Below, one piece after another: positions 48,101 through 51,100 of a stretch of DNA of 64,000 nt. The DNA is taken from assembly GCF_030013205.1 (NCBI RefSeq), contig NZ_CP122648.1; one strand, 5' to 3'. Numbering within the stretch: position 1 is the first letter of the stretch; the number at the start of each line of letters is the position of its first letter. Position numbers: made by a program. The stretch is from Escherichia coli (lineage in GTDB: Bacteria; Pseudomonadota; Gammaproteobacteria; Enterobacterales; Enterobacteriaceae).

Positions 48101-51100
48101 TCTACGCCCAGGTGGCGGTTTACTCCGACCATTTCAGCCATGTTTCGGTGATGCGGAAAGTGCTGCTAAGAATGACCAGCTGGATGCATTATCTTTATTT
48201 GGATCATTGAGGGGGGCGGGGGAGATTATGGAACTTTGCTCCCTGCAAGGACTAATTATTTTTGCATATTATTTCATCGGCTGTGATGATTTTTCGTTAA
48301 TATCCATTATGTTAAGAAGTTCGGGATGAGTGTGAACTCATTGGATTTTTTATCCGTCTTGATCTGCCGAAGGATCAGACTATACATTGTCGAGATCGCA
48401 ATGATGATATGAGTTGTTCCTCTGCCACGGCTCTAATCAAAAAAGAGCAGGAGTGCTTTTCCATCTATTGCGATGATGGCTTTATTATCTGAAGGATGAC
48501 AGTCACATTTAAAAATATTTAATTTATAGATCACAATGTAGGTTCATGTAATATATGTATACAACTATTTTTCTCTTCACTTTTAATTATCGTATTCATT
48601 ATAACACTAAGTTAAAAAAACTCCTGGAGAGTGAGTTATTAATATGTTTTTAAATATAATTAAGTTATTATTCATCGATGCATTTTATAGAATCATCAAT
48701 GGCTACAATAGTACTATTAACTCTCCAATTTATATTTTTATTATCATTGCAAATATTAACTGAATCTATATCAATGATTTTTTTATTTTTATCTTTTATT
48801 TTGTTTACAGTTTCAATGCAATCAGCGACAAGTTGGTGTGGATTTAGATTCTTCAGATATGGTCTTATGATCTTTCCCTTGCTTAATAAATAGCATGTAT
48901 AGGATTCGGAAAGTCCAGCATCTATTTTGTACATCATTATTCTAGATAAGGATGTGAGAAATGCCTTGTTATCATTAGCAGCCATATATGCCAGTCCGAG
49001 TTCAGCCTCTGCGGCTTTACATGAAAAATAGCTAAGTGAACACGCTTTTCGTCCCTCTTGGGTACTGGCTGATATTAGTGCCCATAATATTGCCTTGTCT
49101 GCCAAATCCAACTCTCTCTGAAATTGGTTTACAGTAACTGCATTCGCAGAAATAGAGAAGAAAAGCACAATTGTTAATAACCTTGTCATATTTCTAGTCC
49201 GTCACTGTTAATGTGCTATCTGGCTCTGAAAATATTAGCTCATTTAATTTTTGCATGTCATTAGATGAACCAGTTATACAACCCTCGGAACAGAATCGAG
49301 GTCCTAAAGATGGACCAAAAGCGTTTAAACAACTATGTGTTAAAAATCCATCACGATTATACGTTTCTGTATTTGCTGACGGTACTAAACGTATACCATT
49401 AGGTTTTCTATTGGTTGCTCCAGGACTGTTAAGCAAGCCTCGTCCGGTTTGCTTCATTGAGTTCTCCACTTTAGACTATTGGACTATCTTTCAACATGGC
49501 ATCGCCTTAGTATACCGCTGGTTTTCCGCTCATTGTTAATTTTCTCTTTCGTTCATTTCACTTAATTTTCAGTTTTTTCCAAAAGTCAATATTCCCTTCT
49601 AATAAAATTTTTTCTATGGAATCTTCATTAATTTTATTATTAGAGCATATGACATTATCTTGAACGCCATATGACACCACCCCGTTTTTATCAATATAAT
49701 ATCTGTCTTTACCATCAATAATATAAATCCTAACATTTTTATCATCAAAATGGTAACACTCATTACTAGACCTGTTCAGTAACATTAATAACTTCTCACG
49801 ATTTATCTGTAATAATTTTTGTGCACCATCTTTTATTGCAAAATTTTCAATTTTACTTTTAGTGACAGGGGAATATGTTTGGATGCGAAAAGGCATCCTA
49901 TAATGGAAAACATCAGCTATACAGCAAGATGAAAAAAATACGGAAATAAAATACAGACATACTTTCATACCATCTCCTAAACTGGTGATATATTAAAAAC
50001 ATACCCAAAAGCAATATAAAAATGTTTAATATTTCATTCTTGCTGGCAAGCCCAACTCTTTACGAAATGGGTTTTCATATTTATCAACATTAGCCATCGA
50101 GTCAGTTCCATCGTCTTTCATTCCCTTTGCATGCCCCATTTCATGCGCAAGAACCACACTCAACAGAGTGGGTTTCATGGCACATGCTTTGTTTTTTCCT
50201 TGATATACACATGAGCTATGGTCGTTATCAATATCAATGTAAAAACTATATTCAGTATCATCGTAGCATGTTTGGTTTATGCCTTTTCTTAATCCTCTAA
50301 ATATATATTCATGCTCTGATGACTCTAATTCTTCTGTTATTTTATGTCCAAACTTTGTTTCTGCTACAGCTTTATATGCTTCTTTTAAAGTTTTTTGTGT
50401 ACTTTCATCTCCCTGAAAAGACACTTTTAACCCTAATGGATCGAAACCAGATACCGGATTCAACGGATACTGATAAAAATTCCATCCCCCCTTAAGCCCA
50501 ATCGGATCCTGAGTGATATACCGCCCCTGCAGCGGGTCATAATAGCGGTGGCGGTTGTAATAGAGGCCGGACTCCTCATCATACTGCTGACCCGGCAGGC
50601 GGATGAGCTGCTGCAGCTGGTGCGGGTTCTCTTCATTCAGCAGGTTGCCCCATTCATCGTATTCTGCGCACCATTCTGTTGCCCCTTCCGTGCTGACAAG
50701 CGCCAGCGGCAGGCCGCGATGGTCGCAGTGGTACAGGTGGATTTTTCGCGCCGGCGTGTACACCGGGTCCATCTGGTTTTGTATCTGCTCCACCGTCAGG
50801 CCGCACGATGCCAGCCAGCGGCGGCTTTCCTCACTCACCCGGTCAGCCAGGATTTCACTTTCCAGCCGGTCGAGCATCTGCACCAGCACCGGCGGGAACA
50901 CCATACTGCCACCGTCTTCACCGCCGGACTGCTGAAGGGCATCCGCCAGGCTGCGGCGCTGCGTTTTCGCCAGCTCACCGGTGGCAGTTTCAACTCTGAT
51001 GAGTGGCGTGAAGCTCCCCGGCTGATAAACCGTCTGGATGCGGGTTCTGTCGTTCTGTATTGTGGTCAGCCGGTCGCCGTCCCAGCCGTACCAGGTCACT

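What the first reader, a model, noticed from the sequence alone, without database searches (positions are those of the whole stretch)
49458..49557. Remnant of the rhs start codon region displaced about 4.6 kb downstream of the intact rhs start
Seen in sequence: on the minus strand at 49533 there is ATGAGCGGAAAACCAGCGG followed by GTATACTAA (M-S-G-K-P-A-V-Y-stop). The intact rhs begins ATGAGCGGAAAACCGGCGG (M-S-G-K-P-A-A-R...), so 18 of 19 bases match; flanking sequence on either side does not match. A chance 18/19 match anywhere in 64 kb is very unlikely by rough estimate. Inference: this is a scar of an rhs or PAAR-gene 5' end, implying past recombination or deletion that reshaped the region downstream of rhs. 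The usual orphan remnants in Rhs loci are 3' core fragments, so a 5' remnant is unusual. It sits directly upstream of the 87-aa ORF 49194-49457.
Basis: partly seen in the sequence, partly recalled or inferred. Interest (0 to 1): 0.5.

Follow-up and report, generated by a model that had tools for sequence, protein, structure and literature searches.

The report
Decayed stub of a second rhs gene
The short match is real: it is the decayed first ~130 bases of a second rhs toxin gene, of a different subfamily, that once lay just downstream of the immunity gene, and such leftovers are common and apparently functionless in E. coli.

Summary
The 19-mer at 49515-49533(-) exists and matches the rhsA start 18/19 (0 of 100 shuffles). 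It is not a displaced copy of the resident start. Against rhsA nothing beyond the 19-mer aligns. Against another rhs lineage (an O103 strain's rhs at the asn-tRNA/cbl locus) homology runs in register over the whole 131-bp interval 49427-49557: a 24-nt leader plus ~107 nt of coding sequence, 73% identical, with three in-frame stops. Of 34 differences, 25 are GC->AT, so this is an old, neutrally decaying relic.

It lies directly after the immunity gene of the M91-peptidase-like rhsA tip and is fused, with only 1-2 nt of microhomology, to the 3' 58% of an older Tlde1-type orphan tip. Tip, immunity gene and stub occur together in exactly 180 of 5,426 complete E. coli genomes, all at least 99% identical.

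5' stubs are not unusual. K-12's pseudogene ylbI is one (about 2,765 genomes). A third type follows dsORF-h1 in RhsH elements (about 1,050 genomes), cut by ISAs1. One genome keeps that tandem pair intact (immunity-leader-full rhs).

Best reading: a non-functional relic of a tandem downstream rhs gene. No donor was found. Interest is low to moderate.

The parts
50026..54156 (-). Resident full-length rhsA (1376 aa). The core is RhsA-type up to about 50456. DPLGL ends at 50428. The lineage-specific tip (about 133 aa, HEMGH motif, Peptidase_M91-like) is 50026-50427.
   Evidence: ORF list. 93-100% identical to K-12 rhsA in 200-nt bins up to the tip, with the identity drop at about 50456. PF14891 precomputed for the identical protein; weak direct Pfam hit, i-E 1.3e-3.
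54138..54156 (-). Start of resident rhsA, ATGAGCGGAAAACCGGCGG. This is the 18/19 partner of the stub's 19-mer.
49558..49968 (-). Presumed immunity gene of the M91-like tip (136 aa, no family assignment).
   Evidence: Homologues follow M91-type Rhs tips in Salmonella and Enterobacter and are orphan immunity genes in E. albertii. The immunity role is inferred from position.
49534..49557 (-). 24-nt leader of the lost downstream rhs gene (AATGAACGAAAGAGAAAATTAACA). It starts right after the immunity stop codon.
   Evidence: Aligns with the leaders of the O103 rhs, K-12 ylbI and the E. albertii vgrG-linked rhs, not with the rhsA leader.
49427..49533 (-). Decayed 5' coding part of the lost rhs gene, corresponding to roughly its first 38 codons, with a 9-nt deletion and three in-frame stops. 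It includes the 19-mer at 49515-49533.
   Evidence: 73% identity to the O103 rhs start over 127 nt (leader included). 25 GC->AT against 5 AT->GC differences; 28 transitions against 6 transversions; GC 45% against 64%. Extension significant at 0/500 shuffles.
49426..49427 (.). Illegitimate junction between the rhs stub and the Tlde1 orphan tip (+-2 nt; 1-2 nt of microhomology).
   Evidence: Alignments. No ISAs1/H-repeat terminus at the junction (no match in L001, which covers this stretch; its 1.9-kb match region is 100% identical to the window).
49194..49426 (-). 3' 58% of a Tlde1-domain orphan toxin tip, 5'-truncated. The 91-aa ORF 49194..49469 is a chimera that starts inside the stub.
   Evidence: 97% identical to residues 57-135 of the intact orphan in MMC-J-0085, which carries Tlde1_dom PF10908. 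DNA is 99.3% identical to that genome.
48668..49189 (-). Imm57-family immunity gene of the Tlde1 orphan (173 aa, intact), the last gene of the Rhs locus before yibH.
   Evidence: RefSeq annotation of identical genomes.

Best explanation
The 131 bp at 49427-49557 are a dead relic of the leader and first ~38 codons of a second rhs gene. That gene belonged to a different subfamily from the resident rhsA and once lay directly downstream of the 136-aa immunity gene, i.e. a tandem rhs-immunity-rhs arrangement. The body of that gene was lost, and the stub decayed neutrally, mostly by GC->AT transitions. Most likely the stub then travelled as a passenger with the M91-like tip and its immunity gene when that roughly 1-kb segment replaced the previous tip region of rhsA. 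On this view the left crossover was in the conserved core end near 50456, and the right end was an illegitimate join inside the older Tlde1 orphan tip at 49426/49427, deleting everything between. Shown: the homology, its extent, the decay pattern, the junction, the co-occurrence of tip, immunity gene and stub, and the existence of intact tandem arrangements elsewhere. Inferred: the tandem ancestor of this particular stub, import as one unit rather than decay in place, and lack of function.
For: 18/19 match and its significance. In-register extension against the O103 rhs start and the ylbI leader, none against resident rhsA. 73% identity with 25 GC->AT against 5 AT->GC changes, 28 transitions to 6 transversions, GC 45% against 64%, three in-frame stops. 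The resident core is RhsA-type up to about 50456. The junction with the Tlde1 tip has 1-2 nt of microhomology and no IS end. The adjacent Tlde1/Imm57 DNA is 99.3% identical to a genome with the intact orphan, so the stub's 27% divergence predates the junction. Three different queries each gave exactly 180 of 5,426 genomes, all at least 99% identical and always at the RhsA locus. Precedents for the mechanism: dsORF-h1 + 76-nt leader + full-length rhs in SCPM-O-B-9504, and the same leader and start cut after 13 codons by the ISAs1 left end in about 1,050 genomes. K-12 ylbI is a 33-codon rhs start at the distal end of the RhsD locus. Tandem rhs genes are reported for Salmonella Typhi (PMC2935791).
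Against: No donor or ancestral locus was found with this immunity gene followed by an intact rhs, in 5,426 E. coli genomes, metagenome contigs, plasmids or phages. Homologous immunity genes in E. albertii, Salmonella, Enterobacter and Obesumbacterium are not followed by a stub. The closest intact relative is only 73% identical, so the parent lineage is not identified. The 180 genomes are nearly identical here, so sequence conservation says nothing about function. Import with the cassette cannot be told apart from long residence at this locus.
Confidence: 0.8

Rival explanations
1. The stub and the Tlde1 fragment are the two ends of one resident second rhs gene at the RhsA locus, which suffered a recent internal deletion from about codon 38 to the middle of its tip.
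For: The two pieces abut directly, and tandem rhs genes exist in E. coli.
Against: The core fragment that precedes the intact Tlde1 orphan in MMC-J-0085 is RhsA-type (90% to the resident core) and has no match in the O103-type rhs, from which the stub derives. The stub is 27% diverged with three stops, while the adjoining Tlde1 piece is 99.3% identical to the intact orphan, so the stub was already dead when the junction formed.
Confidence: 0.05
2. One reading: a copy of the resident rhsA start region, displaced 4.6 kb downstream by duplication or recombination within the locus.
For: The 18/19 match to the rhsA start in the same orientation.
Against: The 24-nt leader and the ~90 nt after the 19-mer show no significant similarity to rhsA (58% in a forced alignment). 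They align with another subfamily: the stub's GDAMLKDSPIV corresponds to GDATMKGGPIVQ of the O103 type, not [12 protein letters not shown] of rhsA. The 19-mer is a generic PAAR/Rhs start, shared even with Pseudomonas PAAR genes.
Confidence: 0.03
3. The stub is kept because it does something. It might act as a ribosome-binding site plus 8-codon upstream ORF or leader that helps express the downstream Imm57 orphan immunity gene. Or it might be a right-hand homology arm that lets tip-immunity cassettes be exchanged between tandem rhs arrays.
For: An AAGAG Shine-Dalgarno-like motif and the ATG are intact. Stubs sit right after immunity genes in at least two independent cases. The same dsORF-h1-leader module occurs at two chromosomal loci.
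Against: No promoter-like or terminator-like site at the stub, and no Rfam match. The substitution pattern is that of neutral decay. Only 18/19 nt remain identical to the resident start, too short for efficient homologous recombination (general knowledge). The breakpoints of the three stub types all differ (13 codons, 33 codons, and ~107 nt here) and have different partners: an ISAs1 end, sequence with no rhs similarity lying just before the ylbG pseudogene, and a Tlde1 tip. The right junction here is not in rhs homology.
Confidence: 0.07
4. A chance match of a GC-rich 19-mer.
For: The exact 19-mer occurs in 17 non-rhs contexts among 36 hits in 298 Gb.
Against: 0 of 100 shuffles of the window gave a second match. 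The homology extends in register for about 110 more bases, and the feature sits inside an Rhs locus right after an immunity gene.
Confidence: 0.01

Closest known systems
ylbI (b4632), a 96-nt pseudogene at the distal end of the RhsD locus of E. coli K-12
   Same: A 5'-only rhs fragment (33 codons, 82% identical to RhsA residues 1-33) with its own leader, lying downstream of the orphan modules of an Rhs locus. Its leader, GAAAGAGGAAATAAAC, matches the window stub's GAAAGAGAAAATTAAC.
   Different: It is at a different locus, is much less decayed, and has its start codon mutated to ATT. It does not directly abut an immunity gene. Its rhs homology ends in sequence with no rhs similarity, just before the ylbG pseudogene on the opposite strand, not in a toxin tip. 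It is present in about 2,765 genomes against 180. That databases describe ylbI as an Rhs-family N-terminal fragment is my recollection; here only the pseudogene annotation and the homology were verified.
RhsH element: stub downstream of dsORF-h1 (Hill-lab nomenclature, as used in RefSeq product names)
   Same: An immunity gene is followed by a short leader and an rhs start that stops after a few codons. An intact tandem version exists, showing how such stubs arise.
   Different: The truncation is recent (one difference in the 42 nt shared with the intact copy) and was made by the left end of an ISAs1/H-repeat element after 13 codons. The window's stub is old, has no IS at its end, and belongs to another rhs subfamily.
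Dissociated (orphan) C-terminal tips of Rhs loci: the C-terminal displacement model (Jackson et al. 2009, PMC2935791)
   Same: The same loci and the same process. A new tip and immunity gene entered at the core/tip boundary and pushed aside or deleted older modules. The Tlde1/Imm57 pair here is such an older orphan.
   Different: Orphan tips keep a 3' core piece with the PxxxxDPxGL motif plus a tip. The stub is the opposite end of an rhs gene and has no core or tip. The accessible text of that paper speaks of rhs 'relics' and tandem genes but does not describe 5' stubs next to immunity genes.

Membership tests
rhs gene relic, 5' (N-terminal) pseudogene fragment | Colinear nucleotide homology to the start codon region and first codons of intact rhs genes | tested here: met
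   18/19 to rhsA. 73% over 127 nt in register to the O103 rhs, with the extension significant at 0/500.
rhs gene relic, 5' (N-terminal) pseudogene fragment | Homology ends well before the YD-repeat core, and no Rhs body follows | tested here: met
   At 49426 the sequence switches to the Tlde1 tip, which Imm57 and yibH follow.
rhs gene relic, 5' (N-terminal) pseudogene fragment | Reading frame destroyed | tested here: met
   The translation is MSGKPAVY*GDAMLKDSPIV*SGELNEANRTRLA*, and there is a 9-nt deletion relative to intact starts.
Orphan (dissociated) Rhs C-terminal tip module | A 3' core fragment with the hyperconserved PxxxxDPxGL motif, followed by a variable tip and an immunity gene | tested here: not met
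   The stub has no 3' core or tip sequence. The neighbouring Tlde1 fragment has lost its core piece and the first 56 residues of the annotated 135-aa Tlde1 ORF. The intact form is seen in L002.
Functional PAAR-domain gene | An open reading frame covering a PAAR domain | tested here: not met
   The ORF is 8 codons long, and further stops follow.
IS-generated truncation (ISAs1/H-repeat boundary), as in RhsH | The stub ends at an ISAs1 terminal sequence (AGGGAAAGAnCATCAGAAGT) | tested here: not met
   The pattern was found at the L044 and L053 stubs only, not in L001, which covers this stretch of the window (its 1.9-kb match region is 100% identical).
Known structured RNA or regulatory element | A match to an Rfam family, or promoter/terminator consensus at the site | tested here: not met
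   No Rfam match at E<=1 in 48200-50200. No promoter- or terminator-like site at the stub.

The most novel reading that the evidence does not exclude
Tip-plus-immunity cassettes of Rhs toxins may circulate between tandem rhs arrays as units bounded on the left by the conserved core end and on the right by the leader and first codons of the next rhs gene. On this view 5' stubs are the footprints, and when fresh the right-hand homology arms, of a double-crossover cassette exchange. This would add to the one-sided 'C-terminal displacement' model.
Probability: 0.1. Interest if true: 0.5.

Novelty: new member of a known kind. Interest (0 to 1): 0.22.

Why it matters
On its own this is an evolutionary scar with no evident function. 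Its value is as a marker. It shows that the M91-like toxin/immunity module now serving as the active tip of rhsA in one E. coli lineage (180 of 5,426 complete genomes) once sat in front of a second rhs gene of another subfamily. Together with ylbI and the RhsH stub, it shows that 5' rhs stubs are widespread leftovers of tandem rhs arrays, a class that is only patchily annotated. No feature is annotated at this site in the identical RefSeq genome examined. Annotators could flag such stubs as rhs pseudogene fragments and the 91-aa ORF as a chimeric, truncated Tlde1 tip.

Tried and rejected
(1) The idea that the ~130 nt after the E. albertii immunity homologue are a decayed copy of the same stub: no alignment beat the shuffles.
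(2) Apparent short 'stubs' from the 19-mer scan (L038, L040, L041, L049): tblastn shows that Rhs homology continues in another frame, so these are frameshifted or mis-assembled full-length genes. L025 is an internally deleted rhs.
(3) A 15/16-nt match upstream of the Salmonella orphan tip (L059 ~6105): the sequence there shows no rhs start, so it is a chance match.
(4) Search for a donor arrangement: E. coli genomes, one metagenome scan (three contigs, all with the same arrangement), plasmids (one truncated Salmonella fragment), phages (none), and contexts of immunity homologues in E. albertii, Salmonella, Enterobacter and Obesumbacterium. None has a stub or an intact rhs after the immunity gene.
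(5) An intact version of ylbI in E. coli: none seen among the 30 sampled hits; the locus is near-identical (at least 99%) in 2,705 genomes.
(6) NCBIfam gave no family for the immunity protein, the 91-aa ORF, Imm57 or the Tlde1 orphan.
(7) Promoter/terminator scan and Rfam: nothing at the stub.
(8) The Hill-lab papers that defined RhsH and the dsORFs (PMC107404, PMC176749) are not held, and no paper describing ylbI was found. Whether 5' core fragments were described there could not be checked.

Full report
**The observation.** On the minus strand, 49515-49533 reads ATGAGCGGAAAACCAGCGG and continues TATACTAA, giving M-S-G-K-P-A-V-Y-stop. The 1376-aa rhs gene (50026..54156, minus strand) starts ATGAGCGGAAAACCGGCGG at 54138-54156. 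With up to three mismatches allowed, these are the only two matches in the window. Shuffles gave a mean of 0.04, and none of 100 gave two matches.

**Locus.** The window carries the E. coli RhsA locus in the order selA-yibF-rhsA ... yibH-yibI-mtlA. Reading downstream of rhsA on the minus strand:
- a 136-aa ORF at 49558..49968, the presumed immunity gene;
- the 131-bp interval 49427-49557 that holds the 19-mer;
- a 91-aa ORF at 49194..49469;
- a 173-aa Imm57-family immunity gene at 48668..49189;
- yibH on the other strand.

**What flanks the remnant.** Most E. coli genomes match this region only from about 49424 onwards. In strain MMC-J-0085 that stretch is a complete orphan module: a short Rhs core fragment, a 135-aa Tlde1-domain tip (Pfam PF10908, i-E 2e-7) and Imm57. 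Residues 13-91 of the window's 91-aa ORF are residues 57-135 of that Tlde1 protein, 97% identical and in frame. The ORF is therefore a chimera: a 5'-truncated old orphan tip whose first codons come from the interval under study.

On the other side, the rhsA core is RhsA-type (93-100% identical to K-12 rhsA in 200-nt bins) until about 50456, just before the DPLGL motif that ends at 50428. After that comes a lineage-specific tip with an HEMGH motif and Peptidase_M91 similarity.

The lineage-specific DNA thus runs from about 50456 to 49427: tip, immunity gene, and the 131-bp interval. Three different queries each found this block in exactly 180 of 5,426 complete genomes. The two that cover the lineage-specific block report all 180 at 99% identity or better, and every hit examined lies at the RhsA locus.

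**The remnant is longer than 19 nt and is not a copy of the resident start.**
- Against the resident rhsA, neither flank of the 19-mer aligns better than shuffled sequence.
- Against the rhs gene of an O103 strain, which sits in an island at the asn-tRNA/cbl locus (L004), the ~90 nt downstream of the 19-mer align in register. The score is 31 against 14.8+-2.2 for shuffles, 0 of 500.
- The 24 nt upstream align with the leader of that gene, with the leader of a stub in K-12 (2 of 500), and with the leader that follows the vgrG stop codon in E. albertii.
- A global alignment gives 73% identity over 127 nt, reaching the junction at 49427.
- The stub translates as GDAMLKDSPIV, corresponding to GDATMKGGPIVQ of the O103 type rather than [12 protein letters not shown] of RhsA.
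- The whole interval is therefore accounted for: a 24-nt leader plus about 107 nt of 5' coding sequence of an rhs gene of another subfamily.

**Decay.** Of the 34 differences from the O103 start, 25 are G/C in the intact gene and A/T in the stub, against 5 the other way. 28 are transitions. GC content is 45% against 64-67% in intact starts. There are three in-frame stops and a 9-nt deletion. The same bias appears against every other reference tried. This is the signature of long neutral decay of a GC-rich sequence. The directly adjoining Tlde1 fragment is 99.3% identical to the intact orphan of MMC-J-0085, so the stub was already dead when it was joined to the Tlde1 tip.

**The junction.** The junction shows 1-2 nt of microhomology and no IS end, which points to illegitimate recombination. 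The core fragment in front of the intact Tlde1 orphan is RhsA-type and has no match in the O103-type gene. So the stub and the Tlde1 piece are not two ends of one gene.

**How such stubs arise: precedents.**
- *K-12 ylbI.* The 40-nt leader-plus-start match found in about 2,600 genomes lies at the far end of the K-12 RhsD locus. It is the annotated 96-nt pseudogene ylbI (b4632). It has 33 codons, 82% identical to RhsA residues 1-33, and its ATG is mutated to ATT. About 2,765 genomes carry it, and no intact version was seen among the hits sampled.
- *RhsH.* A contig from the 19-mer scan (L044) showed an Rhs tip, its immunity gene, a 76-nt leader and an rhs start of 13 codons. BLAST found this junction in about 1,050-1,080 E. 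coli genomes, where the immunity gene is named 'RHS element protein dsORF-h1'. There the stub ends exactly at the left terminus of an ISAs1/H-repeat element.
- *An intact tandem pair.* In strain SCPM-O-B-9504 the same dsORF-h1 and leader run into a full-length 1,410-aa rhs gene. So an intact 'immunity gene-leader-rhs' arrangement exists in E. coli, and truncating the downstream gene leaves exactly this kind of stub.
- *Literature.* Tandem rhs genes and rhs 'relics' are also mentioned in the literature (PMC2935791).

The three stub types end at different points and against different partners. This argues for ordinary deletions rather than a site-specific process.

**Specificity of the 19-mer.** A scan of one genome per species (298 Gb) gave 36 hits.
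- 19 hits start PAAR/Rhs genes, in Escherichia, Citrobacter, Superficieibacter and Pseudomonas, or in MAG contigs that look enterobacterial.
- 17 hits are unrelated. That is the order expected by chance: about 4 for uniform base composition by my estimate, and more in GC-rich genomes.
- The 19-mer alone is therefore not diagnostic. The in-register extension is.

**Search for the donor.**
- The immunity protein has 67-71% identical homologues in E. albertii. They are orphan immunity genes at the end of vgrG-linked Rhs loci, followed by an H-repeat rather than a stub. A suspected decayed stub there did not survive a shuffle test.
- Through a small Salmonella fragment, homologous M91-tip/immunity pairs were found in Salmonella SPI-6-type loci, Enterobacter and Obesumbacterium. 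None is followed by an rhs start.
- One metagenome scan returned only the same E. coli arrangement, and phages gave nothing.
- The donor, and whether the stub decayed before or after arrival at this locus, remain open.

**Function.** Nothing suggests one. There is no promoter-like or terminator-like site at the stub and no Rfam match. The substitutions look neutral. The remaining identity to the rhsA start, 18 of 19 nt, is too short for efficient homologous recombination (general knowledge). Because the 180 copies are nearly identical, conservation cannot be used as a test.

**Verdict.** Three details are wrong. It is not a displaced copy of the resident start. Its homology extends across the whole 131 bp. 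And 5' stubs are common in E. coli Rhs loci rather than unusual. It is a new, unannotated member of a known kind of relic. It is of modest interest, mainly as evidence that this toxin/immunity module once stood in a tandem rhs array.

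Noticed in passing
L018-L029, L042 (Pseudomonas) against window 54138-54156: The first 19-20 nt, ATGAGCGGAAAACCGGCGG(C), are identical between enterobacterial rhs genes and stand-alone or fused PAAR genes of several Pseudomonas species ([16 protein letters not shown]...), although synonymous changes were possible. This may reflect a constraint on the 5' mRNA, or only shared codon bias.
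   Followed up: no
L007 7884-8000; L012 and L011 equivalents (E. albertii): After the dsORF-h1-like immunity gene the 76-nt rhs leader is kept up to 2 nt before the expected ATG. Then, where an rhs gene would start, comes the 138-aa orphan homologue of the window's immunity gene. It looks as if a whole second rhs ORF was removed and its immunity gene left behind. The same module occurs at two chromosomal loci, near yafV and near pptA.
   Followed up: partly
L057 (metagenome contig ERZ791611 NODE-13325), last ~15 nt: One contig with the window's arrangement breaks off inside the Tlde1 fragment at ...GACATGC|CAGGGAAAGAT, the ISAs1/H-repeat left end. This suggests a further IS insertion in some members of this lineage.
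   Followed up: no
L043, L044 ('Collinsella sp.' MAG) and L049 ('Lentisphaerae' MAG): These contigs carry Escherichia-type rhs sequence. L044 matches an E. coli RhsH junction at 100% identity over the 231 nt tested. They look like enterobacterial contigs mis-binned into unrelated MAGs.
   Followed up: partly
L058 (OX345625.1, Salmonella enterica 'plasmid: 161'): This 4.9-kb linear record, typed as a non-mobilizable plasmid, matches the chromosomal SPI-6-type T6SS/Rhs orphan region (M91-like tip plus immunity gene) seen in L059 and L060. It is probably a chromosomal fragment, not a plasmid.
   Followed up: partly
L038-L041 (Citrobacter amalonaticus AUH_CA_2023_1): Four rhs genes share the 19-mer. 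Two stop after 46 codons and one after 812, with Rhs homology continuing in another frame. These are either several frameshifted pseudogenes or homopolymer errors in a single-contig assembly.
   Followed up: partly
window 48200-49424 against K-12-like genomes (L003 9237-9758): The Tlde1-3'/Imm57/intergenic stretch exists as two alleles about 7% apart. The window's type is shared with MMC-J-0085, and the K-12 type is found in about 3,400 genomes. In the K-12-like strain Imm57 is frameshifted and the Tlde1 tip is degenerate.
   Followed up: no
L052 1-11000 (E. coli SCPM-O-B-9504): The T6SS cluster upstream of the tandem rhs is broken. tssA and tssH are partial, IS1 and ISEc1 are inserted, and a 5'-truncated rhs precedes dsORF-h1. 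In this genome ISEc1 has removed the upstream rhs, whereas in about 1,050 others ISAs1 has removed the downstream one.
   Followed up: partly
window 49671-49700 (+): An 11/12 match to the sigma-70 consensus (ATGACA-18-TATAAT) lies antisense inside the AT-rich immunity gene. The number of such sites in the region is no higher than in shuffles.
   Followed up: no
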